Assembly: GCA_963814545.1 (NCBI GenBank)
Contig: CAWFDC010000014.1
Coordinates: 201,387-265,386, forward strand
DNA length: 64,000 nucleotides
Origin: an uncultured Thermoleophilia bacterium
GTDB lineage: Bacteria; Actinomycetota; Thermoleophilia; UBA2241
Reading direction: 5' to 3'
The notes beneath the pieces were generated by a model. It had not been told where the DNA came from. It saw only the letters and a program-made list of their open reading frames with translations, and did no database searches. Shown piece after piece: positions 3,429 through 50,428 of the stretch. The translations under genes were made by a program, and so were the position numbers. Position 1 is the stretch's first letter, and each line of letters starts with the position of its first letter.

Positions 3429-4736
3429 ATGGGCCTGATGGACGCACCTCGCGGCATGCGGCTGCACATCGGCATCTTCGGCCGCCGCAACGTCGGCAAG
3501 TCCAGCCTCCTCAATGCCATCACGCGCCAGGAGGTCTCGATCGTCAGCGACTTCGCCGGCACCACGACCGACCCGGTCGAGAAGCCCATGGAGCTGCTGC
3601 CGCTCGGGCCCGTCCTCTTCATCGACACCGCCGGCATCGACGACGTCGGCGTGCTCGGCGAGCTGCGCGCGCGGCGCACGATGCAGATCTTCGACCGCAC
3701 CGACCTCGGTGTGCTGGTCACCGAGGCGGGCTCGTGGGGCGAGTTCGAGGACGGGATCCTCGACGAGTTCCAGGAGCGCAAGACGCCGGTCGTCGTCGTC
3801 TACAACAAGATCGACCTGAACCAGCACCCGGCCCCGGTGCCGCGCCTCGAGGAACTCAAGATCACCCCGGTGCGGACGCAGGCGAGCGAGGGGCGCGGCG
3901 TGCTCGACTTCCGTCAGGCCCTGCTCGACGCCGCGCCGCCCGACTTCATCGACAACCCGTCGATCCTCGGCGACCTCGTGAGCTCCGGCGAGATGGCCGT
4001 GCTCGTGGTGCCGATCGACAAGGAGGCGCCGCGCGGCCGTCTGATCCTGCCGCAGGTGCAGTCGATCCGCGACCTCATGGACTCGGACGCCATGGCACTG
4101 GTCGTCAAGGAGCGCGAGCTCGGGCACGCCCTCGAGCAGCTCAAGCGCCCGCCGCGGCTCGTGGTGACCGACTCGCAGGCCTTCCTCAAGGTCGCGGCCG
4201 ACACGCCGCGCGACGTACCGATGACGAGCTTCTCGATCCTCTTCGCGCGCTTCAAGGGCGACCTCACGAGCCAGGTCGAGGGCACGCTCGCCGTCGACGG
4301 GCTGAAGAGCGGCGCCCGCGTCCTCATCGCCGAGGCCTGCAGCCACCACCCCATCGCCGAGGACATCGGCCGCGTCAAGATCCCGCGCTGGCTCACGCAG
4401 TACGTCGGCGGCAAGCTGCACATCGAGCACGTGCAGGGTCACGACTTCCCCGACGACCCCACGGGCTGGGACCTCGTGATCCACTGCGGCGCCTGCACCT
4501 TCAACCGGCGAGCGATGCTGGGGCGGATCCTGCGCTGCAAGCAGGCCGGCGTGCCGATCACCAACTACGGCCTCGTCATCGCCTACAGCCTGGGCATCTT
4601 CGAGCGCGCCCTGCAGCCGTTCCCGGCGGCGCTCGAGGCGCTCCGCCAGGCGCGCGAGCGCGCCCTCGAGGAGCACGCCGCGCCGCCGGTCACCGCCGGG
4701 CTGCCCGACGATGTCGCCGTCGACGAGCTGTGCTGA
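3429..4736 (+). CDS. hydF: [FeFe]-hydrogenase maturation GTPase HydF
   Basis: Intact 435-aa ORF. P-loop GRRNVGKSS and DTAG are present. C-terminal cluster-binding motifs EACSHHP ... HCGACTFN (CxHx~50HCxxC). Confidence 0.9.
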   Translation: MGLMDAPRGMRLHIGIFGRRNVGKSSLLNAITRQEVSIVSDFAGTTTDPVEKPMELLPLGPVLFIDTAGIDDVGVLGELRARRTMQIFDRTDLGVLVTEAGSWGEFEDGILDEFQERKTPVVVVYNKIDLNQHPAPVPRLEELKITPVRTQASEGRGVLDFRQALLDAAPPDFIDNPSILGDLVSSGEMAVLVVPIDKEAPRGRLILPQVQSIRDLMDSDAMALVVKERELGHALEQLKRPPRLVVTDSQAFLKVAADTPRDVPMTSFSILFARFKGDLTSQVEGTLAVDGLKSGARVLIAEACSHHPIAEDIGRVKIPRWLTQYVGGKLHIEHVQGHDFPDDPTGWDLVIHCGACTFNRRAMLGRILRCKQAGVPITNYGLVIAYSLGIFERALQPFPAALEALRQARERALEEHAAPPVTAGLPDDVAVDELC

Positions 4737-23710: not shown

Positions 23711-26569
23711 TCAGTCGAGCTCGCCGCGGCGCCTGAGCTCAGTATAGCCCGCCACGGCGGCCTGCCCCAACGCGACGCCGCCGTCGTTCACCGGCACGAG
23801 GCCGGAGGCGAGGACGGCGAAGCCGTCGGCGGCCAGCGCCGTCTCGCACTGCGCACTGAGCAGGCGGTTCTGGAAGACGCCGCCGGAGAGGGCGACGCGA
23901 CCGATGCCGGTCGCGTCGCGCAGCCGGCGGCTCAGATCGAGCACCAGCGCGGTGACGCTCGCGTGCAGGCGCGAGCCGATGAGGCCGGGCGCGCGCCTCG
24001 CCTCGGCGTCGTCGAGGACGGCGCCGAGGAGCGGCGCGAGCCGCACGACGAGCGGCTCGCGAGGCGTACCCGGCGCCGAGCCCGGGGCGTGCGCGGCGAG
24101 CAGGGCGACGTCGACGTACACGGAGGACAGCGCCGCGTCGACGTCGCCCTCGACCGCGTACGGGTACGGCTCGGCGCCGCCCCGCGACATCATCTCGAGC
24201 TCGATCGCCGCCTGCCCCTCGTAGGTCACCGCACCGCGGACCCCAGCCAGTGCGGCGACGGCGTCGAAGAGGCGGCCGCAGCTCGTCGTGAGCGGCGCGT
24301 TGACGCCGGCGCGGACCTGGGCGGCGACCGCCGCCAGCTCCTCGTCGCTCGGCGGGCGGTCGACGCCGTCGTCGGCCACGGCGGCGAGTCCCGCGTCCGT
24401 CGACACTGCGGAACGGCCGCCGCGACCCTCGGGCGCTGCGCGCCCGAGCAGCGCCGCGGCCCTCTCGAACCCTTCGTCCCCGAGCAGCGCGAGGCTCCAG
24501 CCGAGCGCCGTCCGCCAGGGCCGCTCGATCGCCGCCGCGCCGCCGGCGAGCGGCAGCGCCTCGAGGTGCGCGACACGCCGGTAGCCAAGCAGGTCGCAGA
24601 CGAAGACCTCCCCTCCCCACAGCAGGCCGTCGTCCCCGTAGCCGAGACCGTCAAGACTCACCCCGATGACCGGCTCGGTGACGCCGTGCTCGATCATCCG
24701 TGCGGCGATGTGGACGTGGTGGTGCTGCGTCGGCAGCTTCGTCCCCTGCGGCAGCGAGAGCGCGTGCTTGGTCGCCAGGTACTCGGGGTGCAGGTCGTAG
24801 GCGATGACCTCCGGCTCGAGGCGGAACAGGCGCTCGTAGAGCGCGATGCTGGTCTCGTAGTGCTCCAGCGTCTCGAGGTTCTCGAGGTCGCCGATGTGCT
24901 GGCTGAGGAAGGCGTTGGTGTCGCGCGTGAGGCAGAAGGTGTTCTTGAGCTCGGCCCCGCAGGCGAGCACCTGCGGGAGGGCGCGCGGGAGGGCCACCGG
25001 GAAGGGGGCGTAGCCGCGCGAACGGCGGAGCAGGCGGGTGCGACCGCGCTCGACGGCCGCCACGGAGTCGTCGTAGCGGGCGGCGATCTCGCGGTCGTGG
25101 ACGAGGTAGGCGTCGGCGATGCCGTGCAGGCGGCCGGCCTCCTCCCACCCCTTGACGATGGGCTCCTCGGCGAGGTTGCCGCTGGTCATGACCAGCGGAC
25201 GGCCCGCGGCGCGCACCAGCAGGAGGTGCAGCGGCGTGTACGGGAGCATCGCGCCCAGGTAGCTCTGGCCGACGGCGACCTCGGGGTCGATCTCGGCGTC
25301 GGCGGGAGCGGACGCGGCGTCGGCGGGCGTGACGTCGAGGGGCCCGGCCTCGGCGGCGCGGTCCGACGTCGTCGCCGATGCGCTCGCCGGCGCCGCCCTG
25401 TGAGCCGCGCCGTCGCCGAGCTCGGGTCCCATGACCCCGCGCCCGTCGACCTCGCGCCAGCGCAGCAGCACGATCGGGTGCTCGGGCGACGTGAGGAGCG
25501 CCGCCTCGTCCTCGTCGACGAGGCAGTGGCGGCGCAGCTCGTCGAGGCCGGCGAGCATTGCGGCGAGCGGTTTGTGCGGGCGGCCCTTGCGTCGCTTCAG
25601 GCGCCGTACGGCCTCGCCGTCGGTGGCGTCGCAGGCAAGGTGGAAGCCGCCGAGGCCCTTGATGGCGAGGATCTCGCCGCGACGGAGCAGCTCGGCGGCG
25701 GCGCGGATCGGCGCCGCCGGGTCGGCTTCGTCGCCGGCGGCGAGTTCAACGACCGCGCCGCCTTCGGGCGCGGCCGCCGTCGCCCCGGGCGCGGCTCGGC
25801 CGCCGTCCGCAGAGCCGACGGGCGCGCCGGCGGCGGCGAGCTCGTCGGCGGCGCCGGCGACGTCCTCCTCCCCGCCCTGGACCCTCAGCAGCCGCACCCG
25901 CGGCCCGCAGACCGGGCAGGCGTTGGGCTCGGCGTGGAAGCGGCGGTCGAGCGGATCCTCGTACTCCTTGCGGCACGCGGGGCAGAGCGGGAAGTGACGC
26001 ATCGTCGTGCGCTCGCGGTCGTAGGGCAGCGACTCGATGATCGTGAAGCGCGGCCCGCAGTTGGTGCAGTTCGTGAACGGGTAGTCGTGGCGCCGGTCGG
26101 CCGGGTCGAGCAGCTCGCGGCGGCAGTCGTCGCAGGTCGCGATGTCGGGCGAGACGAGCTGATAGGCGTCGGGGTCGACGCTGCTCTCGAGGATCGAGAA
26201 GGCGGTGTGGCCTTCGGGCGCCGCCGCCCTGCGCTCGAGGCTGGCGATGTACGAGCGCGGCGGCGCCTCTCGCGGGAGGGCGTCGACGAAGCCGTCGACG
26301 GCGCCGGCGTCGCCCTCGACGTGGATCTCGACGCCGGCCGAGGTGTTGCGCACCCAGCCGTACACGCCCCGGCTCCGGGCCAGCGTGTAGATGAAAGGCC
26401 GGAAGCCGACGCCCTGAACGACGCCGCGCGCCCAGAGGCGCGCGGCGGACGGGGCGTCGTGCGAGGCGCCGGTCTCACGGCCGGCCCGACCGGCGCCGGC
26501 GTGACCGTCGCCGGTCCGGCCGTCGCCGGGCCGGCCCTCGCCGGCGCCGGGCGGGCTCAGTGAGGGCAT
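23711..26569 (-). CDS. hypF: carbamoyltransferase HypF (with low-complexity Ala/Gly/Pro-rich inserts)
   Basis: Acylphosphatase start VQGVGFRPF. Two zinc-finger pairs CDDC...CTNCGPRF and CPAC...CPVCGP. YrdC-like and Kae1-like halves (LKNTFC..., VALSGGVFQN). The start at MPSLSPPG overlaps the upstream gene by 13 nt. Confidence 0.9.
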   Translation of the reverse strand: MPSLSPPGAGEGRPGDGRTGDGHAGAGRAGRETGASHDAPSAARLWARGVVQGVGFRPFIYTLARSRGVYGWVRNTSAGVEIHVEGDAGAVDGFVDALPREAPPRSYIASLERRAAAPEGHTAFSILESSVDPDAYQLVSPDIATCDDCRRELLDPADRRHDYPFTNCTNCGPRFTIIESLPYDRERTTMRHFPLCPACRKEYEDPLDRRFHAEPNACPVCGPRVRLLRVQGGEEDVAGAADELAAAGAPVGSADGGRAAPGATAAAPEGGAVVELAAGDEADPAAPIRAAAELLRRGEILAIKGLGGFHLACDATDGEAVRRLKRRKGRPHKPLAAMLAGLDELRRHCLVDEDEAALLTSPEHPIVLLRWREVDGRGVMGPELGDGAAHRAAPASASATTSDRAAEAGPLDVTPADAASAPADAEIDPEVAVGQSYLGAMLPYTPLHLLLVRAAGRPLVMTSGNLAEEPIVKGWEEAGRLHGIADAYLVHDREIAARYDDSVAAVERGRTRLLRRSRGYAPFPVALPRALPQVLACGAELKNTFCLTRDTNAFLSQHIGDLENLETLEHYETSIALYERLFRLEPEVIAYDLHPEYLATKHALSLPQGTKLPTQHHHVHIAARMIEHGVTEPVIGVSLDGLGYGDDGLLWGGEVFVCDLLGYRRVAHLEALPLAGGAAAIERPWRTALGWSLALLGDEGFERAAALLGRAAPEGRGGRSAVSTDAGLAAVADDGVDRPPSDEELAAVAAQVRAGVNAPLTTSCGRLFDAVAALAGVRGAVTYEGQAAIELEMMSRGGAEPYPYAVEGDVDAALSSVYVDVALLAAHAPGSAPGTPREPLVVRLAPLLGAVLDDAEARRAPGLIGSRLHASVTALVLDLSRRLRDATGIGRVALSGGVFQNRLLSAQCETALAADGFAVLASGLVPVNDGGVALGQAAVAGYTELRRRGELD

Positions 26570-27519
26570 CGCAGCTGCAGGTCGTCCTTGTAGTGGAGCT
26601 CGCCGCACTCCGCGCAGCGCAGCTCGTAGAGGAACCCGATCGCGACCTGATGCCGGGCGCAGAACTTGAGACGCGCGGCCAGTACCTCGAGGGTGGTGGC
26701 TCCGCAGGCCATGCAGGTGAGGAGGACGTCGTCGCCGAGGTGGTAGTCCTGGCGCAGGTGCTGCAGAGCCCCGGCGGCGCCCTGGTGCACGGGCAACTCG
26801 GCCTCGAGCGCCTCCTGCGGGTCCAGCCACGGCGCCAGGACCTCGTCGGCCAGCGGGCGGACGAGACCGGGCAGGCAGGCGAGCTTCTTGTGGATCGACT
26901 TGAGGTGGCGCTGGTACGGGCAGCCGTCGCCGCGCTGCTCTCCCATCAACTCGCTCTCGTGCCGGGCGAAGAGCTCGCGCCGGGTGACGAACGCGCGGAC
27001 GTCGGCGTGGTCGACCACCTCCACCTCGCAGCGCACCTTGGGCGGCCGGCCGCGGCCACGTGGCTGCGTCGGCCGCGTCAGCGTGAGCAGCCCGATGTCC
27101 GGGTCGCCGTCCATCGCCGCCAGCACCGTCGCGAGCCAGGACGGCTCGAACTCGAGCGTGTCCTCGGCCCGCACGAGGTACTCGGCGCCGGTCGCGTGGT
27201 AGGCGCGGCCGAGGCCGCAATGCCGGTCGTCGGGCTCGCGGTTGACGAGCTCGAACCCGGCGATGCGCCCCCGCATGTACTGCCGCGTGAGGTACGTCGC
27301 GACCATCTCGGGGGCGCCGGGGGCGAAGACGGTCACTTCGGCCGCGCCGTCGGCGCCCTCACGCAGGCTCACGAGGGTTCGCCGCAGCGGCACGAGCCCG
27401 TGCGTGGCGAAGAGCGCCACCGCGACGCGCGCGGTGCCGTCGCCGGCCGGGAGCGGCGCGCCGCCGTCGTAGTCGCGTGGGTCGCGTCCCTCGCCGCCGC
27501 GCAGGTCCGCGCCGCTCAC
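26557..27519 (-). CDS. uncharacterised GT-A (family-2 glycosyltransferase)-like protein with C-terminal 4-Cys zinc ribbon
   Basis: The GTG start overlaps the endopeptidase stop (GTGA). GAEYLVRAEDTLEFEPSWLATVLAAMDGDPDIGLL resembles the DxD/acceptor region of GT2 enzymes, with AED in place of DxD. The C-terminus is LTCMACG...YELRCAECGELHY. Confidence 0.5.
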   Translation of the reverse strand: MSGADLRGGEGRDPRDYDGGAPLPAGDGTARVAVALFATHGLVPLRRTLVSLREGADGAAEVTVFAPGAPEMVATYLTRQYMRGRIAGFELVNREPDDRHCGLGRAYHATGAEYLVRAEDTLEFEPSWLATVLAAMDGDPDIGLLTLTRPTQPRGRGRPPKVRCEVEVVDHADVRAFVTRRELFARHESELMGEQRGDGCPYQRHLKSIHKKLACLPGLVRPLADEVLAPWLDPQEALEAELPVHQGAAGALQHLRQDYHLGDDVLLTCMACGATTLEVLAARLKFCARHQVAIGFLYELRCAECGELHYKDDLQLRCPH

Positions 27520-28011
27520 GCCGCCCCTACCTCGGCACGGACGAGCTCGATGACGCGCTCGGCGGCCTCGGCGACCGGCGCCGAGAGCTCCTCGGCGAAG
27601 GTCTCGACGTCGACCGCCTCGACGGCGAACACGGTCACGTCGCCCGGCATGTCGTAGCCGAGCGTGCGCCCGAGCTCGAGCGCGGTGCTCGAGGCCGATC
27701 GAGTGCGCCGAGCTGTAGCGGTGGCCGCCGGTGAAGTCGCGCGCCTCGTAGCGCACGACTTCGCCGGCCTCGCGGCCGCTCTGCAGGGCATCGACGATCA
27801 CGACCTTATCGTAACCTCTCAGCAGCTCGAGCAGCCGCAACCCCGCGACCTCGCTCTCACGCACCTCGACGCCGTCGGGCAGGGGCGTCGCCCGCAGGCG
27901 CTGGGCGACGTAGAGCCCGACCCCGTCGTCCGACAGGATCGGGTTGCCCATCCCGAGGACGAGCGTCGACGTCACCTCACAGGTAACGCCGGACACTGGT
28001 GACGACCTCAT
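27516..28011 (-). CDS. hydrogenase maturation endopeptidase (HycI/FrhD/HoxW family), frame-disrupted near 27690
   Basis: LVLGMGNPILSDDGVG...VVIVDA in ORF 26557..28011. The C-terminal half ...LELGRTLGYDMPGDVTVFAVEAVDVETF... is in ORF 27516..27791. The start is uncertain: 28011 overlaps mvhA by 35 nt and alternatives exist. Confidence 0.8.
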
Positions 28012-42902: not shown

Positions 42903-44631
42903 ATGGACGAACCCAAGATCGGCTTCTACATCTGCAACTGCGGCACCAACATCGCCAAGATGGTCGACTGCGACGCGGTCGCCGAGGCGGCGAGCCACCT
43001 GCCGGGCGTGGCGGTCGCCAAGTCCTACAAGTACATGTGCTCCAACCCGGGCCAGGAGATGATCATCCAGGACGCGAAGGAGCAGGGGCTCGACCGCGTC
43101 GTGGTGGCGGCCTGCAGCCCGCGGATGCACGAGCCCACCTTCCGCAAGGCGCTCGCCACCGCGGGCGTCAACCAGTACTTCCTCGAGATGGCCAACATCC
43201 GCGAGCAGTGCAGCTGGGTCCACGACGACCGCGAGGCGGCCACCGAGAAGGCCAAGGCGCTCGCGTTCGGCGCCGTCAGGCGCGTCGCCTACCACGAGCC
43301 GCTCGAGCGCCGCTCGGTCGACATGTGCGCCAGCACGCTCGTCATCGGCGGCGGCATCGCCGGGCTGACCGCGGCCCTCGAGCTCGCCGACGCCGGCACC
43401 CAGGTGTACCTGGTCGAGCGCGAGGACCACCTGGGCGGCAACATCGCCCGCGTCGACCTCACGGCGCCGTACCTCGACTCGGCCCGCGACATGCTGAGCG
43501 AGCGCGTCACCCGGGTGCTCGAGCACCCCGACATCGAGGTGCTGCTCGACTCCGAGGTCGAGAGCATCGAGGGCTACGTCGGCAACTTCACCGCCAAGGT
43601 CTCCGGCAAGGCGGCGGGCAACGGCGACGTCGCGACGCACGAGATCGACGTCGGCAGCGTCATCGTGAGCACCGGCTACCAGGAGTTCGACGCCTCGCGC
43701 ATCACGCACTACGGCTACGGCAAGCTGCCCAACGTGATCACCTCGTTCGAGTTCGAGAAGATGCTGCGCCGCGGGCGAGATCGAGACCAAGGAGGGCAAA
43801 GTCCCCCAGTACGTGGCGATCGTGCACTGCGTCGGCAGCCGCAGCAAGGAGTTCCACGCCTACTGCTCGCGGGTCTGCTGCATGACGGCGCTCAAGTACG
43901 CCCACGAGGTGAAGTCGGCGATCCCCAACTGCTACGTCAGCGACGTCTACATCGACATGCACGCCTTCGGCAAGGGGCACGAGGACTTCTACCGGCGCAG
44001 CTCCGAGGTCAAGACCCTCTTCCTCATGTTCAAGAAGAACGAGCACCCGGTGATGCGCAAGGCCGACCCCAAGGACGACTGCGAGATGCTGATCGAGGTC
44101 AACGAGAAGCTCTCCGGCGAGATCATCGAGATGCCCGCCGACCTCGTCGTCCTCATGGTCGGCATGGAGGCCCAGGCCGACTGCCGCGAGGTGGCCCACC
44201 TGGTCAACATCAGCCACGACAAGGACGGCTGGTTCATCGAGAGCCACCCCAAGCTCGACCCGGTGGCGACGACGACCGACGGCGTCTACATCGCCGGCAC
44301 CTGCCCGGCGCCCAAGGACATCCCCGACACCGTCGCCCAGGCGCGGGCCGCGGCGGCGCGGATCCTCGCCCAGATCTCGCGCGGCAAGATCGAGATCGAC
44401 GCCGTGTTCGCCGAGGTCGACGAGGACCACTGCTCGGGCTGCCGCATCTGCAACGAGCTCTGCCCGTACACCGCCATCGAGTTCGACGCGGAGAAGCACA
44501 AGAGCCACGTGATCAGCGCGCTCTGCAAGGCGTGCGGCGCCTGCGTCGCCGCCTGCCCGTCCGGGGCCATCAAGGCGCGGCACTTCACCGACGAGCAGAT
44601 CTTCGCCCAGATCGAGGGGGTGCTGGCATGA
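42903..44631 (+). CDS. hdrA: HdrA paralog (QmoB-core-like: N-terminal Cys domain and C-terminal ferredoxins kept, inserted ferredoxin missing), frame-disrupted near 43775
   Basis: KIGFYICNCGTNI...AACSPRMHE, VIGGGIAGLTAAL, HCVGSR...CSRVCCM, GTCPAPKDIPDTVAQA, CSGCRICNELCP and CKACGACVAACP. ORF 42888 continues in ORF 43813..44631. Confidence 0.85.
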
Positions 44632-45062
44632 GCTTCGAGCCGAAGATCGTCGGCTTCCTCTGCAACTGGTGCTCGTACACGGGCGCCGACCTCGCCGGCA
44701 CGAGCCGCATCCAGTACGCGCCCAACGTGCGTGTGATCCGCGTGATGTGCTCGGCGCGCATCGACCCGACGTTCGTGATCCGCGCCCTCGAAGAAGGCGC
44801 CGACGGGGTGCTCATCTGCGGCTGCCACCCGGGTGACTGCCACTACTCCGAGGGCAACTACAAGGTGATGCGGCGCTTCCCGCTGCTCAAGAAGCTGCTC
44901 GCGGAGTACGGCATCGAGAACGACCGCGTGCGGCTCGAGTGGGTCAGCGCCAGCGAGGGGCAGCGCTTCGCCGACATCGTCAACGACATGACCGAGCGGG
45001 TCCGCGAGCTCGGGCCCAGCAAGATCCGGCCGGCCCTGCAGGCCGACGCGGCGGAGAGGTGA
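44628..45062 (+). CDS. mvhD: MvhD family protein, copy 2
   Basis: MSFEPKIVGFLCNWCSYTGADLAG...ICGCHPGDCHY, 144 aa. The ATG overlaps the hdrA stop (ATGA). Confidence 0.88.
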   Translation: MSFEPKIVGFLCNWCSYTGADLAGTSRIQYAPNVRVIRVMCSARIDPTFVIRALEEGADGVLICGCHPGDCHYSEGNYKVMRRFPLLKKLLAEYGIENDRVRLEWVSASEGQRFADIVNDMTERVRELGPSKIRPALQADAAER

Positions 45063-45064
45063 CT

Positions 45065-46042
45065 GTGGCCGAGAAGCTGCAGATCGCGATGTACTGGGGC
45101 GCCGCCTGCGGCGGCTGCGACGTCTCGGTGCTCGACACCAACGAGTTCATCCTCGACATCGCCGCCGCCTGCGACATCCGCTTCTGGCCGATCGCCGTCG
45201 ACGGCAAGTACTCCGACCTCGAGGCGATGGACGACGGCGAGCTCGACGTCTCGTTCTTCAACGGCGCCGTGCGCAACAGCGAGAACGAGCACGTCGCCAA
45301 GCTCCTGCGCCAGAAGAGCAAGCTCATGGTGGCCTTCGGCTCGTGCGCCCACCTCGGCGGCATCCCGGGGCTCGCCAACCTCGCCACGAAGGGCGAGATC
45401 TTCGACCGCGCCTACCTGCACAACCCGTCGATCCAGAGCGGCAACGAGACGGTGCCGCAGCCGGAGAGCACCGACGACGGCTACGAGCTCGAGATCCCCG
45501 TGTTCTACGACCGGGTCTACAAGCTCGACGACGTGGTCGACGTCGACTACTACCTCCCCGGCTGCCCGCCGGCGCCGACCCAGGTCAAGGCCGTCGTGCA
45601 GGTGCTGGTGGCGGTGCTCACCGGCCAGGCCGAGGCGCCGCCCAACGGCGCCGTGGTCGGCGCCTCCGAGGTGGCCGTCTGCGAGGACTGCCCGCGCACG
45701 CGCGAGGAGAAGAAGATCACCAAGTTCTACCGTCCCTGGCAGATCATCCAGGACCCCGAGCGCTGCCTGCTCGAGCAGGGCATCCTCTGCGCCGGCATCG
45801 TCACGCGCTCCGGCTGCGGGGTGCGCTGCCCCAACACCAACATGCCCTGCCGGGGCTGCTACGGTCCGCTGCCCAACGTGACCGACCAGGGGGCCAAGTT
45901 CGTCAGCGCCCTGGGCTCGATCATCGACAGCAAGGACCCGGAGGAGATCGAGCAGATCATCGCCGACGTCCCCGACATCGCCGGCCTGAGCTACCGCTTC
46001 GGACTGCCGGCCTCCCTGCTCCAGAGGAAGGTCACGCCATGA
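45065..46042 (+). CDS. mvhG: [NiFe]-hydrogenase small subunit MvhG-like, copy 2 (intact)
   Basis: VAEKLQIAMYWGAACGGCDVSVLD, FGSCAHLGGIPG, YYLPGCPP, GCGVRCPNTNMPCRGCYGP. A GTG at 45065 aligns with the copy-1 N-terminus; an in-frame GTG at 45059 is also possible. Confidence 0.88.
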   Translation: MAEKLQIAMYWGAACGGCDVSVLDTNEFILDIAAACDIRFWPIAVDGKYSDLEAMDDGELDVSFFNGAVRNSENEHVAKLLRQKSKLMVAFGSCAHLGGIPGLANLATKGEIFDRAYLHNPSIQSGNETVPQPESTDDGYELEIPVFYDRVYKLDDVVDVDYYLPGCPPAPTQVKAVVQVLVAVLTGQAEAPPNGAVVGASEVAVCEDCPRTREEKKITKFYRPWQIIQDPERCLLEQGILCAGIVTRSGCGVRCPNTNMPCRGCYGPLPNVTDQGAKFVSALGSIIDSKDPEEIEQIIADVPDIAGLSYRFGLPASLLQRKVTP

Positions 46043-47505
46043 CCCGACGCATCAGCATCGACCCCATCACCCGGCTCGAGGGCCACGGCAAGATCGAGAT
46101 CTTCCTCGACGACGACGGGGCGGTCGAGGACTGTCACTTCCAGATCCCCGAGCTGCGCGGCTTCGAGCGCTTCGTCGAGGGCCGCCCGATCGAGGAGCTG
46201 CCGCGCATCGTGACCCGCATCTGCGGCGTCTGCCCGGCGAGCCACCACATGGCCAGCGCCAAGGCGGTCGACGGCTGCTTCGGCAACGAGTGCCCGGAGC
46301 TGGCCCACAAGCTGCGCGACATGTACTACAACGCGCACTACATCCACAGCCACATCGCCCACTTCTACGCCCTGGCCGCCCCCGACTTCGTCTGCGGCCC
46401 CGACAGCGACCCCGCGATGCGCAACATCCTCGGCGTGGTCGACAAGGTCGGGCTCGAGATCGGCGGCGCGGTCATCAAGGCGCGGGCGATGGCGCAGGAG
46501 ATCCAGATGCTCCTCGGCGGGCGCTTCACCCACCTTGTGTGGTGCCTGCCGGGCGGCGTCGCCAAGGGCTGCTCCGAGGAGGAGCTCGAGAAGATCAAGC
46601 CCATGGTCGCCGAGCTCTACGACTTCACGCAGTTCTCGCTGCAGCTCTTCCGCGACGTCGTGCTCGCCAACGAGGGCTACGTCGACCTCATCGTCAACGG
46701 CCCGTACACGCTCGACGTGCACAACATGGGCCTGGTCGACGAGAACAACAAGGTCAACTTCTACGACGGCAAGGTACGCGTCGTCGACTACGAGGGCAAC
46801 GAGATCGTCAAGTACGCGCCCAACGAGTACATGAACGTGGTCGCCGAGCACGTCGAGCCGTGGTCCTACCTCAAGTTCCCGTACCTCAAGGAACGCGGCT
46901 GGAAGGGCTTCGTCGAAGGCATCGACACGAGCCTCTACTGCGCCACGCCGCTCTCGCGCCTCAACGTCGCCGACGGCATGGCGACGCCCAAGGCGCAGGA
47001 GGCCTGCGACGAGATGTTCACGACCCTCGGCGGCAAGCCGGTCAAGGCGCAGCTCGCCCAGCACTGGGCGCGCCTCGTCGAGATGGTGCAGAACGCCGAG
47101 ACCCTGCAGATGTACTGCGACGACCCGGAGATCACCGGCGACGGCTACCGGGTCGTCCCCCAGCAGATCACCGGCGAGGGCGTCGGCATCGTCGAGGCCA
47201 TGCGCGGCACCCTGACCCACCACTACACCTGCGACGAGAACGGCATGTGCACGAGCGCCAACCTCATCGTCGGCACGACCAACAACAACGCCCCCATCCA
47301 CATGATGACGAAGAGGGTCGCCAGCACCCTGATCAAGCCCGGCGTCGAGCCCGACCAGGGCATCCTCAACATGGTGGAGATGGCGTTCAGGGCCTTCGAC
47401 CCGTGCTACAGCTGCGCCACGCACAGCCTGCCCGGCGAGATGCCCCTCGAGGTGCAGATCATCAAGGGCGGCAAGCCGTATCGCGAGTTCAGGCGTAACT
47501 GCTAG
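46039..47505 (+). CDS. mvhA: [NiFe]-hydrogenase large subunit MvhA-like (group 3c-like), copy 2 (intact)
   Basis: 488 aa with RLEGHGKIEIF, RICGVCPASHH and C-terminal DPCYSCATH plus extension. The ATG overlaps the mvhG stop. Confidence 0.92.
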   Translation: MTRRISIDPITRLEGHGKIEIFLDDDGAVEDCHFQIPELRGFERFVEGRPIEELPRIVTRICGVCPASHHMASAKAVDGCFGNECPELAHKLRDMYYNAHYIHSHIAHFYALAAPDFVCGPDSDPAMRNILGVVDKVGLEIGGAVIKARAMAQEIQMLLGGRFTHLVWCLPGGVAKGCSEEELEKIKPMVAELYDFTQFSLQLFRDVVLANEGYVDLIVNGPYTLDVHNMGLVDENNKVNFYDGKVRVVDYEGNEIVKYAPNEYMNVVAEHVEPWSYLKFPYLKERGWKGFVEGIDTSLYCATPLSRLNVADGMATPKAQEACDEMFTTLGGKPVKAQLAQHWARLVEMVQNAETLQMYCDDPEITGDGYRVVPQQITGEGVGIVEAMRGTLTHHYTCDENGMCTSANLIVGTTNNNAPIHMMTKRVASTLIKPGVEPDQGILNMVEMAFRAFDPCYSCATHSLPGEMPLEVQIIKGGKPYREFRRNC

Positions 47506-47517
47506 CGGCCGCCGCGG

Positions 47518-48099
47518 ATGAGCGACGCAACGCAGGCGAGCGGTGAGAAGGGCGGCGATGTCAAGACGCTGCTCATCGGCATGGGCAACCCGATCGTCAC
47601 GGACGACGCCGTGGGGATCCTGCTGGCGCGCGAGGCGGGCGCGGCCCTCGGGCCGCGCCCCGGCCTCGACGTCATCGACGAGTGCTGCATCGGGGGCCTC
47701 AACCTGCTCGACCTCGTCGCCGGCTACGACCGCCTCGTGGTGCTCGACTCGATCAAGACCCGCGACGGCGTGCCCGGCACCTGGTACCGCTTCGACGCCA
47801 CCGACCTGCGCGAGACGATGAACCTGCGCAACGTGCACGACGCCAACTTCGCGACGGCGATGGCCCTCGGCCGCTCGGTGGGCATGCACCTGCCCGACGA
47901 CGCCGACGTGCACATCCTCGCCGTCGAGATCGACGACAACATCAACTTCGGCGAGCAGCTCAGCCCGCCGCTGGCGGCCGCCTACGACGAGCTGCGCGAC
48001 GAGATCCTCGCCGAGGTGCGCCGGGTGCTCGACGGCGAGGCGGCGAGCGAGGCCGTCGGCGACGAGCCCGCGACCGCAAGGAGCGCGACATGGAGATGA
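47518..48099 (+). CDS. hydrogenase maturation endopeptidase, copy 2 (intact)
   Basis: LLIGMGNPIVTDDAVG, VVLDS, HDANF. 193 aa. Confidence 0.85.
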   Translation: MSDATQASGEKGGDVKTLLIGMGNPIVTDDAVGILLAREAGAALGPRPGLDVIDECCIGGLNLLDLVAGYDRLVVLDSIKTRDGVPGTWYRFDATDLRETMNLRNVHDANFATAMALGRSVGMHLPDDADVHILAVEIDDNINFGEQLSPPLAAAYDELRDEILAEVRRVLDGEAASEAVGDEPATARSATWR

Positions 48100-48296
48100 T
48101 CAAGCTCGACTGCCCCTCGTGCGGGCGGACGAACCAGCCGCTGACCCAGACCGAGGAGCAGCTGCAGTACCGCTGCGGCGCCTGCGGGATGGTGTACTAC
48201 GGACCGGCCAAGTGCGCCGACGACCTCAAGCCGACCGACGTGCCCGACACGCCGGTCGAGGGCGGCGGCGACTGGGACACGGCTCCGCCGAAGTAA
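48090..48296 (+). CDS. 68-aa 4-Cys zinc-ribbon protein
   Basis: MEMIKLDCPSCGRTNQPL...LQYRCGACGMVYYG. Overlaps the endopeptidase stop by 10 nt. The Cys spacing and flanks resemble the C-terminus of the 26557..27519 protein. Confidence 0.55.
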   Translation: MEMIKLDCPSCGRTNQPLTQTEEQLQYRCGACGMVYYGPAKCADDLKPTDVPDTPVEGGGDWDTAPPK

Positions 48297-48319
48297 GCGC
48301 TGGGGGGCGCGTGCAGAGG

Positions 48320-48349
48320 GGTCGGCGGCCGCTCACGCGGCCGCCGACC
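48320..48349 (+). terminator. 13-bp GC hairpin after the zinc-ribbon gene
   Basis: ggtcggcggccgc-tcac-gcggccgccgacc. There is no U-tract, so function as a terminator is uncertain. Confidence 0.4.
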
Positions 48350-48367
48350 CACGCGCCGGTGACGCGG

Positions 48368-50428
48368 ATGCGCTCACTCCACAGCCCTCGCGACGGGTCC
48401 ACGACCCTGCCCGACGGGGGCACGATCGCCGTCGTGGGTGGCGGGCCGGCGGCGGCCTTCTTCAGCATCCAGGCGCTGAGAGGGGCGCGTGAGCGCGGCA
48501 AGGACGTCCGGCTCCTCGTCTTCGAGCGCAAGATGGAGGTCTCCGGCGACGGTTGCCCGGCCGACACCGCCTGGAAGGGCTGCAACCACTGTGCCGGCGG
48601 CATCTCCCCTCGTCTGACCGACTCCCTGAAGGAGCACGGGCTCGAGCTGCCCGAAGGCGTGATCCAGGGGCGGACGAGCCACATCACCGTGCACGGGGAC
48701 TGGAAGAGCATCGAGCTCCCCGTGCCGCCAGGCAGGGAGATGCTCAGCGTGTTCCGCGGGTCACGCCCCGAGCGGCGCCCGGACGCGCATCTGAACCTCG
48801 ACTCCTTCCTGCTCGAGCGCGCCGCTGAAGAGGGCGTACACGTCGTCGACGCCGAGGTCTGCGGCATCCGCTGCTCCAGTAACGGCAGACCCGTGATCTC
48901 GTACCGCCGCCCGGGCTCGAGCGAGACGCGCGACGAGACCGTCGAGGCGGATCTCGCCGTGTTCGCGGCGGGCGTCAACCGCGCGACGGACATGGAGGTG
49001 GCCGCGGACCCGCTGCTGACCGCGCTGGCCGACGTGCTCCCCGGCTTCCGCCCGCCGCGCGTGCGCAAGGCCTTCATCGTCGAGATGGAGACCGAGGAGG
49101 AGCTCAGCGACGCCATGCGCGGCGAGATGCACTTCGTCCCCTACGGCTCGAAGGGCCTGCGCATCGAGCTTGCGTCCCTGATCCCGAAGGGGAGATGGAC
49201 GACCGTGGTCCTGCTCGGCAAGAGCATCGACAGGGCGCCGCTCTCGCAGTACCTGGAGGTCGTGGAGCGCTTCCTCGACCTCCCGCACATCAAGCGCGCC
49301 CTCCCCCGGCGCGCCGGGTTCCACCCCGTCTGCGTGTGCCACCCGAACATGACGGTCGGGGCGGCGCGCAACGGCGTCGGCGAGCGCCTCGCCGTCATCG
49401 GCGACCTCGCCGTCTCGCGCCTCTACAAGGACGGCCTGTACTCGGCCTTCCTCACCTCCTCGGCGCTCGCCGAGTGCGTGCTCGAGCGCGGCATCGACCG
49501 CCGCAGCCTCGAGCTCGGCTACTGGCCCGCGGTCACGCGCGTCGACCGCGACAACCGCTCGGGGCACGCGGTCTTCGCCCTGACGCACGTCGTCTTCTCG
49601 CGCCCGATGCTCAGCCGCGTCGTCTACCAGGCCGTGCTGACCGAGCGCCGCAACCAGCCCGAGGAGTCGCGCCGGCTCGGCGACGTGCTGTGGCGCATCG
49701 CCAGCGGCGACGACAGCTACGCACGCTGCCTCGCCGGCATGTTCCGCCCCGTGGCGGTCTGGCGCGTCGTCGTCGGCGGGGCCCTGGTCACGGCGAGGAA
49801 CTGGGTGACCGAGAAGGTCTTCGGGCTGAGCTGGAAGGGCATCGGGCGCTACCAGACGGGCGTCTCCCGGCAGAACGTCGAGAAGCGGCGGGCCGACCTC
49901 ATCTCCACGCTCGGCTACCGGCCGTTCGGCGAGCAGCCGCAGATGGAGAGCATGTTCTCGATCCGCATCCGCAGCGGAGGCGCGGCGATCCTCCGCCAGC
50001 TCGAGAAGTTCGGCGACGAGGCGCGCGAGTACTTCACGCCGCGCCTGATCCGCGTGCGACGGACGGCCGGAGCGCCGACCGACGTGGGCACCACGATCCG
50101 CTACAACGTGACCCCGCCCTGGTACTCGTTCTCGGTCGCCCTCGAGAGGATCGTGCCGGGGCACTGCCTGCTGTACCGGGCGCTCGACGGCTTCCCGCGC
50201 GACGGCATCCTGGCCTTCGACGTCGCGGGCGAGGGACCGGCCCGGAGCCTCCTGACGATCTACCTGGCCTTCGACTTCCCCAAGCCGAGGAACCCCTTCA
50301 AGCGGGCCGCCTGGTGGCTCTTCCGCCTCACCTTCCCCGGGTTCGTGCACGACGTGCTCTGGAACCACGCCCTCTGCAAGCTCAAGTATCTCGTCGAGAG
50401 GGCGGAAGCTGAGGCCGAGGACGACTGA
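48368..50428 (+). CDS. FAD-dependent oxidoreductase (geranylgeranyl-reductase-like) fused to a C-terminal SRPBCC/START-like domain
   Basis: Intact 686 aa. IAVVGGGPAAAF dinucleotide motif and KGCNHCAGGI. The C-terminal ~160 aa (FSIRIRSGG...YNVTPPWYSFSVALERI...LTIYLAFDF...) looks like a lipid/ligand-binding SRPBCC fold. Both domain calls are by eye. Confidence 0.5.
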   Translation: MRSLHSPRDGSTTLPDGGTIAVVGGGPAAAFFSIQALRGARERGKDVRLLVFERKMEVSGDGCPADTAWKGCNHCAGGISPRLTDSLKEHGLELPEGVIQGRTSHITVHGDWKSIELPVPPGREMLSVFRGSRPERRPDAHLNLDSFLLERAAEEGVHVVDAEVCGIRCSSNGRPVISYRRPGSSETRDETVEADLAVFAAGVNRATDMEVAADPLLTALADVLPGFRPPRVRKAFIVEMETEEELSDAMRGEMHFVPYGSKGLRIELASLIPKGRWTTVVLLGKSIDRAPLSQYLEVVERFLDLPHIKRALPRRAGFHPVCVCHPNMTVGAARNGVGERLAVIGDLAVSRLYKDGLYSAFLTSSALAECVLERGIDRRSLELGYWPAVTRVDRDNRSGHAVFALTHVVFSRPMLSRVVYQAVLTERRNQPEESRRLGDVLWRIASGDDSYARCLAGMFRPVAVWRVVVGGALVTARNWVTEKVFGLSWKGIGRYQTGVSRQNVEKRRADLISTLGYRPFGEQPQMESMFSIRIRSGGAAILRQLEKFGDEAREYFTPRLIRVRRTAGAPTDVGTTIRYNVTPPWYSFSVALERIVPGHCLLYRALDGFPRDGILAFDVAGEGPARSLLTIYLAFDFPKPRNPFKRAAWWLFRLTFPGFVHDVLWNHALCKLKYLVERAEAEAEDD

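What the first reader, a model, noticed from the sequence alone, without database searches (positions are those of the whole stretch)
48090..48296. Stand-alone zinc-ribbon mini-protein after the second endopeptidase mirrors the ribbon of the first cluster
The 68-aa protein is MEMIKLDCPSCGRTNQPL...LQYRCGACGMVYYG and overlaps the endopeptidase-2 stop by 10 nt.

Its two CxxCG knuckles and their flanks line up with the C-terminal ribbon of the 26557..27519 protein (hxCxxCG ... Y-x-x-R-C-x-x-C-G-x-x-x-Y). Both paralogous hydrogenase operons therefore carry 'endopeptidase then zinc ribbon', once free-standing and once fused to a GT-A-like domain.

HypA also uses a 4-Cys zinc site. This protein lacks the N-terminal MHE nickel motif, so it is not a plain HypA.
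Basis: seen in the sequence. Interest (0 to 1): 0.6.

Follow-up and report, generated by a model that had tools for sequence, protein, structure and literature searches.

The report
Hydrogenase-linked five-cysteine zinc-ribbon mini-protein
The 68-residue ORF is a real, conserved gene from a small, undescribed family of cysteine-rich zinc-ribbon proteins that in uncultured Thermoleophilia almost always sits beside one type of [NiFe]-hydrogenase operon, but it is not demonstrably related to the ribbon in the window's other hydrogenase cluster.

Summary
The ORF at 48090..48296 exists as described: 68 aa, an AAGGAG ribosome-binding site 6 nt upstream, and a 10-nt overlap with the endopeptidase stop. 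It is under purifying selection (dN/dS 0.3-0.45).

It belongs to a narrow family with no Pfam or NCBIfam model. The motif is CPxC-x3-N-x13-CxxCG-x2-YY-x-P-x2-C, with five invariant cysteines. I found it only in Thermoleophilia-type sequences.

The family has four forms:
- short and co-directional after the endopeptidase (this window);
- longer and convergent to the endopeptidase (two subtypes);
- the C-terminal module of a CRP/FNR-like cNMP-binding protein, encoded right after the hydrogenase large subunit.

Of 29 genomic copies, 19 lie within 1 kb of the HdrA-MvhD-small-large-subunit-endopeptidase operon. About half of such operons lack the ribbon, and one congener carries a decayed copy, so it is an optional accessory.

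The claimed "mirror" of the 26557..27519 protein's ribbon fails. Family HMMs do not find each other (E 440, or no hit at all), and profile-profile alignment picks a different register. A true HypA lies elsewhere in the genome.

My best reading, which is inferred, is a metal-stabilised docking or regulatory module for this hydrogenase or its maturation step.

The parts
48090..48296 (+). 68-aa zinc-ribbon mini-protein gene (c-type member of the family)
   Evidence: Translation. Orthologues in the same position. dN/dS 0.3-0.45. GC1/2/3 of 0.62/0.49/0.96. All family invariants present.
48078..48083 (+). AAGGAG Shine-Dalgarno, 6 nt before the ATG, inside the 3' end of the endopeptidase gene
   Evidence: Sequence. 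Identical in the congeners L002-L005.
48111..48122 (+). first knuckle CPSC (residues 8-11)
   Evidence: C8 and C11 are invariant and P9 nearly invariant across 29 diverse members.
48174..48185 (+). second knuckle CGAC (residues 29-32), followed by G-M-V-Y-Y-G-P
   Evidence: C29, C32, Y37 and P39 are invariant and G33 nearly invariant. AF2 places the knuckles on a three-stranded sheet.
48213..48215 (+). fifth invariant cysteine (C42)
   Evidence: Invariant in all four subtypes. Its role is unknown.
48270..48275 (+). D-W motif in the disordered acidic tail
   Evidence: D61 and W62 are at least 90% conserved in the a- and c-type alignment. The same G(D/N)W..(S/T)P tail follows the ribbon in in-operon b-type fusions. 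The tail has pLDDT about 60.
48319..48350 (+). perfect 14-bp G+C-rich hairpin just after the stop; probable operon end (no T-run)
   Evidence: Fold -55.8 kcal/mol for 48290..48375, z -4.25. The stem is kept in four congeners, with compensatory T:A to A:T and G:C changes at one pair. The consensus terminator scan does not call it.
47518..48099 (+). [NiFe]-hydrogenase maturation endopeptidase 2, the invariable neighbour of the ribbon gene
   Evidence: TIGR00072 E 5.6e-23 and PF01750. Adjacency holds in all arrangements.
46039..47505 (+). hydrogenase large subunit 2 (Mvh/HoxH-like)
   Evidence: Orthologues of 76-98% identity head the same locus in relatives. PF00374/PF27537 on homologous contigs.
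44628..46042 (+). MvhD/FlpD-like subunit (44628..45062) and small subunit (45065..46042) of the same operon
   Evidence: tblastn synteny. PF02662 and PF01058 in homologous contigs. Coordinates.
26557..27519 (-). comparison object: conserved protein with its own C-terminal Cys-rich ribbon, after endopeptidase 1. Not a relative of the mini-protein by any test.

Best explanation
Shown:
- 48090..48296 is a real protein-coding gene. It is the last gene of the HdrA-MvhD-small subunit-large subunit-endopeptidase operon, has its own ribosome-binding site, and is followed by a conserved hairpin.
- The product is a 40-residue three-stranded zinc ribbon with an acidic disordered tail that carries a conserved D-W motif.
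- It belongs to a lineage-restricted family that Pfam and NCBIfam do not describe. The family is defined by CPxC-x3-N-x13-CxxCG-x2-YY-x-P-x2-C.
- The genes of this family are physically tied to this one hydrogenase operon in at least four arrangements. One arrangement is a fusion in which the ribbon hangs on a flexible linker behind a CRP/FNR-type sensor domain, in place of the usual helix-turn-helix.

Inferred:
- The ribbon is a metal-stabilised (probably Zn, four Cys) protein-docking module.
- It attaches to the hydrogenase complex or to its maturation endopeptidase.
- The sensor-fused form would convey a ligand or redox signal to that target. The free forms, such as the window's, would occupy the same site as an accessory or modulator.
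- The module is optional, not a core maturation factor.
For: The gene is real.

Family and invariants.
- Only about 50 clusters score E<=1e-3 among 1.84 billion representatives.
- 112 clusters have no precomputed Pfam domain.
- Pfam and NCBIfam hits are sub-threshold and generic.

Distribution:
- 23 of 401 class genomes carry it, in two families.
- Outside Thermoleophilia there were no hits in a 401-genome sample of the phylum.
- The organisms are uncultured Thermoleophilia MAGs.

Linkage:
- c-type after HycI.
- a-type convergent to HycI, 4 of 4 proteins looked up plus 4 genomes.
- d-type convergent to HycI, 4 of 4.
- b-type directly after the large subunit in 10 genomes of another family.
- Overall 19 of 29 class matches lie within 1 kb of the operon, while the outer flanks differ.

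b-type architecture:
- PF00027 at E 1e-14 to 1e-18.
- Foldseek to M. tuberculosis CRP and GlxR at E 5e-12 over about 148 residues.
- The linker 150-174 is disordered and the ribbon is a separate unit.
- The b-type tail resembles the window's tail.

Other points:
- Ribbon cores are acidic, pI mostly 4.3-6.5, which argues against nucleic-acid binding.
- The ribbon is optional: 20 genomes with the orthologous operon have none, and one congener has a decayed copy.
- Ribbon types track the large-subunit tree and appear on its deepest branches.
Against: - No direct evidence of any interaction. Gene adjacency is the only functional link.
- Many of the genomes are close relatives, so the counts are not independent.
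- Convergent orientation (a- and d-types) does not imply co-expression.
- Extra paralogues lie away from the operon: the genome's own contigs C20 and C22, and others.
- The invariant fifth cysteine, and the additional CGC and C-terminal PGC(S) cysteines of the a-type, are not explained by a purely structural zinc site.
- The metal cannot be told from sequence.
- The AF2 model has only moderate confidence (pLDDT 71) and has no informative structural neighbour.
Confidence: 0.45

Rival explanations
1. Maturation accessory. The ribbon works with the endopeptidase and Hyp machinery, for example by holding the large-subunit precursor or C-terminal extension, or by handling nickel through its extra cysteines, during assembly of this particular hydrogenase.
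For: - The one neighbour common to every arrangement is the endopeptidase gene.
- In L075 the gene lies between hypA-F and the endopeptidase.
- The protein is cysteine-rich, with a fifth invariant Cys and CGC/PGC motifs in the a-type.
- The window copy is translationally coupled to the endopeptidase.
Against: - About half of orthologous operons do without it, and a congener lets it decay while keeping the hydrogenase.
- A complete HypA is present elsewhere.
- Fusion to a CRP-like sensor domain fits regulation better than catalysis of assembly.
- It is often transcribed from the opposite strand.
Confidence: 0.25
2. Rubredoxin-like iron protein. The four knuckle cysteines hold Fe rather than Zn, and the protein is a one-electron carrier or an oxygen-protection factor for the hydrogenase, analogous to HoxR/HupI of oxygen-tolerant membrane-bound hydrogenases.
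For: - The knuckles are CPxCG and CxxCG(M/L)V(Y/F)Y.P, as in rubredoxins.
- There are weak local matches to rubredoxin chains (E 0.2-5) and to rubredoxin-like ribbon models.
- The order and spacing would fit a circular permutation (my observation).
- Rubredoxin-type HupI/HoxR is a described hydrogenase maturation factor (PMC4257681, read).
Against: - PF00301 does not match the native sequences at E<=1.
- PF00301 matches permuted sequences only at E 0.04-0.26, over one knuckle.
- The spacing between knuckles is 17 residues, not about 29.
- The d-type lacks the D-W element.
- Foldseek gives no rubredoxin hit.
Confidence: 0.15
3. The mini-protein and the C-terminal ribbon of the 26557..27519 protein are two versions of one module, so both paralogous hydrogenase clusters carry 'endopeptidase then the same ribbon'.
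For: - Both genes follow an endopeptidase, and both have two CxxC knuckles with an aromatic-x-RC-x-x-CG-x-x-(H/Y)Y second knuckle.
- BLASTP gives E 0.012.
- hhalign profile-profile gives Prob 38-64%.
- Only about 4% of genes carry such a motif.
Against: - The best profile alignment uses a different register from the one proposed.
- The mini-family HMM never hits the other protein, even at E<=1000.
- The reverse HMM ranks the mini about 212th, at E 440.
- The knuckle spacing, the extra ligands and the phyletic distribution all differ.
Confidence: 0.07
4. The mini-protein is a partner of the downstream 684-aa flavoprotein (48374..50428) rather than of the hydrogenase.
For: The trio endopeptidase, mini, 684-aa gene recurs in contigs at about 60% identity and in G006.
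Against: - A conserved hairpin separates the two genes.
- In G007 and G002 the mini is not followed by that gene.
- The a-, b- and d-types have no such neighbour.
- G006 keeps the flavoprotein while the mini has decayed.
Confidence: 0.05

Closest known systems
HypA/HybF nickel metallochaperone (PF01155)
   Same: A small hydrogenase-associated protein with a four-cysteine zinc site made of two CxxC pairs.
   Different: - No MHE nickel motif.
- No PF01155 match.
- About half the size of HypA.
- A fifth invariant Cys.
- The ribbon can sit internally in a fusion protein.
- A genuine HypA is encoded elsewhere in the same genome.
Rubredoxin-type hydrogenase factors HoxR/HupI, and rubredoxins in general (PF00301)
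   Same: A small protein with CPxCG and CxxCG knuckles followed by aromatic residues, encoded in a [NiFe]-hydrogenase cluster.
   Different: - The knuckle order is reversed and the spacing is 17 residues.
- No significant PF00301 match, native or permuted.
- It is associated with a group-3 Hdr/Mvh-type enzyme, not a membrane-bound uptake enzyme.
CRP/FNR-family regulators (for the fused b-type relatives)
   Same: An N-terminal cNMP-binding beta-barrel plus a long C-helix, superposable on M. tuberculosis CRP and GlxR.
   Different: - The helix-turn-helix DNA-binding domain is replaced by a disordered linker and the ribbon.
- The canonical phosphate-binding Arg is not conserved (sequence inspection).
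- The window's protein is the ribbon module alone.
GATA-type zinc finger (PF00320)
   Same: Identical CX2CX17CX2C spacing. It is the best profile match among PDB sequences (E 5e-4).
   Different: - No Pfam match for native members.
- Acidic rather than basic.
- Pro39 is invariant and a strand, not a helix, follows the second knuckle.
- Bacterial, and not a DNA-binding context.
C-terminal ribbon of the 26557..27519 protein (GT-A-like + ribbon family of the first cluster)
   Same: Position after a hydrogenase endopeptidase, with two CxxC knuckles.
   Different: - 29-residue spacing.
- Additional FC..H and terminal RCP ligands.
- Part of a roughly 290-aa protein.
- No profile-level similarity.

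Membership tests
   All are present in the window protein. The family HMM scores the window ORF at E 7.6e-28 in the genome's six-frame ORFs.
   It overlaps the endopeptidase stop by 10 nt. The same linkage holds in 19 of 29 class matches and in all long metagenome contigs examined.
HypA (PF01155) | Match to the HypA model | tested here: not met
   PF01155 is not among the Pfam hits at E<=1. The genome's real HypA is at C11:366526-366819, 68 bits.
HypA (PF01155) | N-terminal Met-His-Glu nickel site | tested here: not met
   The N-terminus is MEM. In b-type relatives the equivalent residues are internal.
Rubredoxin (PF00301) | Match to the rubredoxin model over both knuckles | tested here: not met
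   No hit for the native protein. Permuted versions give E 0.04-0.26 over model positions 1-16/24 only.
Rubredoxin (PF00301) | Fe(Cys)4 centre | not testable with these tools
   Needs metal analysis and spectroscopy of the purified protein.
Ribbon of the 26557..27519 protein family | Reciprocal profile similarity | tested here: not met
   hhalign Prob 2% and 38-64% in another register. hmmsearch in both directions fails.
GATA zinc finger (PF00320) | Pfam model match and a basic DNA-binding tail | tested here: not met
   PF00320 is absent from the hits of native members. pI of the window protein is 4.3.
YgiT/MqsA-type zinc finger (TIGR03831) | Score over the curated cut-off of 20.2 bits | tested here: not met
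   The window protein scores 14.7 bits. Two d-type relatives reach 22.6-23.1 bits, but over only the second half of the model.
Zinc-ribbon fold (generic) | Two CxxC knuckles on a three-stranded antiparallel sheet | tested here: met
   The AF2 model has strands at 17-20, 24-28 and 35-39, with pLDDT 75-80 over residues 1-40. The top, non-significant, Foldseek hits are RNA-polymerase ribbon subunits.

The most novel reading that the evidence does not exclude
The ribbon is the targeting domain of a new post-translational control system for a group-3 Hdr/Mvh-type hydrogenase.
- A CRP/FNR-like sensor, lacking any DNA-binding domain, would be tethered by the ribbon to the enzyme or to its maturation protease. 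It would switch activity or maturation on a small-molecule or redox signal.
- The free mini-proteins, such as the window's, would act as microprotein-style competitors or constitutive occupants of the same docking site.
- A variant reading is that the cysteine arm of the longer forms is itself the thiol/disulfide substrate of the HdrA module.
Probability: 0.15. Interest if true: 0.75.

Novelty: new variant of a known kind. Interest (0 to 1): 0.5.

Why it matters
Small cysteine-rich accessory proteins such as HypA and the rubredoxin HoxR/HupI are known to decide whether [NiFe]-hydrogenases mature and survive oxygen. None is described for the Hdr/Mvh-type enzymes of soil Actinomycetota, which are candidates for atmospheric or fermentative H2 turnover.

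This family is a concrete, testable candidate partner. It is tiny, easy to express, and tied to one operon. It also exists naturally as a fusion to a ligand-sensing domain, which points to a way these enzymes could be regulated without a transcription factor.

Tried and rejected
- **Homology with the 26557..27519 ribbon.** I ran BLASTP, hhalign (single sequence and profile-profile) and reciprocal hmmsearch against the genome's six-frame ORFs. It is rejected.
- **HypA substitute.** Rejected: there is no model match and a real HypA is present.
- **Circularly permuted rubredoxin.** Permuted sequences of nine members were scanned against Pfam. PF00301 scored only E 0.04-0.26 over one knuckle, so the idea is not supported.
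- **GATA-like DNA-binding finger.** The spacing and a PDB profile hit at E 5e-4 suggest it. The acidic cores, the invariant proline and the predicted strand argue against it.
- **Structure search with the AF2 model.** Nothing scored below E 1.5.
- **Literature.** Four full-text searches found nothing on such a ribbon or on a cNMP-domain protein in Mvh/Hdr operons.
- **Consensus terminator and promoter scan.** It found nothing. The hairpin was found by folding instead.
- **Context of the genome's own paralogues.** The copies on contigs C20 and C22 gave no functional hint.
- **Earlier-findings index by sequence.** It returned nothing.

Full report
**1. The observation**

Window 48090..48296 (+) translates without stops to MEMIKLDCPSCGRTNQPLTQTEEQLQYRCGACGMVYYGPAKCADDLKPTDVPDTPVEGGGDWDTAPPK. 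AAGGAG lies at 48078..48083, 6 nt before the ATG.

The preceding gene, 47518..48099, is a hydrogenase maturation endopeptidase (TIGR00072 E 5.6e-23; PF01750 over its cut-off). Its TGA ends at 48099, so the overlap is 10 nt as stated.

GC at codon positions 1/2/3 is 0.62/0.49/0.96, the same signature as the neighbouring genes. In a 70% G+C genome, where long spurious ORFs abound, this matters.

A perfect 14-bp hairpin at 48319..48350 follows the stop (z -4.25). Four congeners keep it, with compensatory changes at one pair. It has no T-run and the consensus terminator scan misses it.

**2. Is the gene conserved?**

Yes.
- Four congeners carry it at 94-99% identity in the same place.
- Metagenome contigs at about 60% identity show large subunit, HycI, mini and a 684-aa gene in that order. 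In one of them the mini does not overlap the endopeptidase.
- Nei-Gojobori dN/dS is 0.3-0.45 at dS about 0.7.
- One congener (G006) retains only a remnant in two frames between the endopeptidase and the 684-aa gene.

**3. The claimed mirror of the first cluster's ribbon**

- BLASTP of the mini against the 26557..27519 protein gives 10/46 identities with a 12-residue gap, E 0.012 for that single comparison.
- The mini-family profile against that protein gives hhalign Prob 2%.
- I built an alignment of ten homologues of that protein. They conserve LLTCMACG..LEVLAARIKFC..H..AIG..YELRCPECGELHYKDDLQ.RCP.
- Profile-profile comparison with that alignment gives Prob 38-64% over 24 columns. It pairs the mini's first knuckle with the other protein's second knuckle, which is not the register proposed.
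- An HMM of the mini family, run with all filters off against 38,043 six-frame ORFs of the same genome, finds three members (E 1e-24 to 1e-38). It never finds the 26557..27519 region, even at E<=1000.
- The reverse HMM ranks the mini about 212th, at E 440.

The resemblance is that of any two CxxC ribbons. That both endopeptidases are followed by a Cys-rich ORF remains a fact. About 3.8% of crude gene calls in this genome have such a motif, so the coincidence is mildly suggestive of analogy, not homology.

**4. What the mini-protein belongs to**

Pfam and NCBIfam give only sub-threshold, generic ribbon hits.

Searching relatives revealed paralogues at 35-50% identity, including two in the same genome. 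Alignments define a family with invariant C8, C11, N15, C29, C32, Y37, P39 and C42, with P9 and G33 nearly invariant. That is, CPxC-x3-N-x13-CxxCG-x2-YY-x-P-x2-C.

The family is small.
- About 50 clusters score E<=1e-3 among 1.84 billion representatives.
- There are 112 clusters at 90% identity, none with a precomputed Pfam domain.
- Named records are all uncultured Thermoleophilia or Actinomycetota MAGs.
- 23 of 401 sampled genomes of the class have it, in two families.
- In a 401-genome sample of the phylum, the only hits were two Thermoleophilia genomes.

Four architectures exist:

| Type | Size | Distinguishing features |
|---|---|---|
| a | 81-100 aa | YGPCGC, a D-W motif, and a C-terminal YPGCS or PGGC |
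| b | about 220-270 aa | an N-terminal cNMP-binding domain followed by the ribbon |
| c | 67-72 aa | the window's type; its tail (..GGGDW.TAPP) resembles the tail that follows the ribbon in b-types |
| d | 50-80 aa | MERMACPECG..N.M..V...RQY.C..CG..YYTP..C, with variable tails |

**5. Genomic linkage**

This is the main result.
- The c-type follows the endopeptidase co-directionally.
- The a-type lies convergent to the endopeptidase of the Fer4 protein, HdrA, FlpD/MvhD, small subunit, large subunit, HycI operon. It is 22-89 nt away or overlapping. This holds on all four long contigs looked up and in four genomes, while the outer neighbours differ.
- The d-type has the same convergent position in 4 of 4 cases, beside operons whose large subunit is 77-79% identical to the window's. 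In one case it lies between hypA-F and the endopeptidase.
- The b-type follows the large subunit co-directionally in ten genomes of a second family, and there the endopeptidase is the convergent gene.

In all, 19 of 29 matches in the class sample lie within 1 kb of these genes, 8 do not, and 2 sit on contigs too short to tell.

The ribbon is not obligatory. Of about 37 sampled genomes with an orthologous large subunit (at least 76% identity), 20 have no ribbon near the endopeptidase or anywhere else.

On a large-subunit tree the ribbon types are clustered and occupy the deepest branches. This fits an old association with at least 2-4 losses.

**6. Structure and chemistry**

- AlphaFold2 with 63 sequences gives a three-stranded ribbon for residues 1-40 (pLDDT 75-80) and a disordered tail.
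- Foldseek finds nothing below E 1.5.
- The b-type model has a CRP-like beta-barrel and a long C-helix, a disordered linker (150-174) and a separate ribbon.
- The b-type's first 148 residues or so superpose on M. tuberculosis CRP and GlxR at E 5e-12, and PF00027 matches at E 1e-14 to 1e-18. The helix-turn-helix of CRP/FNR regulators is therefore replaced by the ribbon.
- Ribbon cores are acidic (pI mostly 4.3-6.5; window protein 4.3).

**7. Comparison with known families**

- HypA: no model match and no MHE. A true HypA is at C11:366526-366819 of the same genome.
- Rubredoxin (HoxR/HupI are hydrogenase factors; PMC4257681): the knuckle chemistry is similar and the order and spacing would fit a circular permutation. 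Permuted sequences, however, score only E 0.04-0.26 on PF00301.
- GATA finger: the CX2CX17CX2C spacing is identical and it is the best PDB profile hit (E 5e-4). Charge and predicted secondary structure disagree with it.
- YgiT finger: below the cut-off for the window protein.

**8. Interpretation**

Shown: a real gene, a new narrow family, tight but facultative linkage to one hydrogenase operon, and a natural fusion to a sensor domain through a flexible tether.

Inferred:
- The ribbon is a metal-stabilised docking module for the hydrogenase complex or its endopeptidase.
- The fused form couples a signal to that target.
- The free forms are accessory occupants or modulators.

I put this at about 0.45. 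The invariant fifth cysteine is not explained by any of them.

**9. Limits**

- There is no expression or interaction evidence.
- Most genomes are MAGs of related organisms, some with frameshifted genes, so the counts are approximate and not phylogenetically independent.

Noticed in passing
window 27519..28011 (-): Endopeptidase 1 of the first hydrogenase cluster changes reading frame after ..SSAHSIGL. Its C-terminal half (ALELGRTLGYDMPGDVTVFAVEAVD..) is in another frame. This is either an assembly error or a frameshifted gene. The long 484-aa ORF 26557..28011 is an artefact of this.
   Followed up: partly
L083 (G006:C153) about 4075-4190: This is a decayed copy of the c-type mini gene, sitting between the endopeptidase and the 684-aa gene. 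MEATRLDRPSCDCGR.. is in one frame and ..GDWRTALPGQ in another, and the second knuckle is deleted.
   Followed up: partly
window 48319..48350: This perfect 14-bp GC hairpin has no T-run. It is conserved in four congeners, with compensatory substitutions at one pair (T:A, A:T, G:C).
   Followed up: partly
own genome C20:141052-141306 (L014 5992..6249) and C22:53338-54003 (L013 5482..6147): There are two further paralogues in the same genome, away from any hydrogenase gene. One is an a-type ending in KYPGCS, convergent to a multicopper-oxidase-like gene. The other is a b-type (cNMP domain + ribbon) with an unusually low GC3 of 0.79, next to a tRNA gene.
   Followed up: partly
a-type relatives (alignment A2, e.g. 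P0058, P0093): They have a conserved C-terminal ..YPGCS or ..RPGGC on a disordered arm, plus a YGPCGC motif. From memory, the arm recalls the cysteine arm of DsrC/TusE. I did not test this.
   Followed up: no
b-type relatives in family f4 (e.g. L069 5497..6210): The N-terminal L(K/R)CC and a later EDC cysteine inside the CRP-like domain are conserved in most in-operon b-types. The canonical cNMP phosphate-binding Arg is not conserved.
   Followed up: no
L029 777..1052 (ENA contig_64645): This variant copy (P0006) has the first knuckle Cys replaced by Ser and a frameshifted tail. It lies in an unrelated context near a TetR gene and is probably a dead paralogue.
   Followed up: no
window 48374..50428 (+): This 684-aa flavoprotein-like gene has only weak Pfam and NCBIfam hits (geranylgeranyl-reductase-like N-terminus). 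It is syntenic with the c-type mini in several contigs but not in G007 or G002.
   Followed up: partly
G238:C11:32837-34895: There are two partial large-subunit matches in inverted orientation, back to back. This is either an inverted duplication or an assembly artefact.
   Followed up: no
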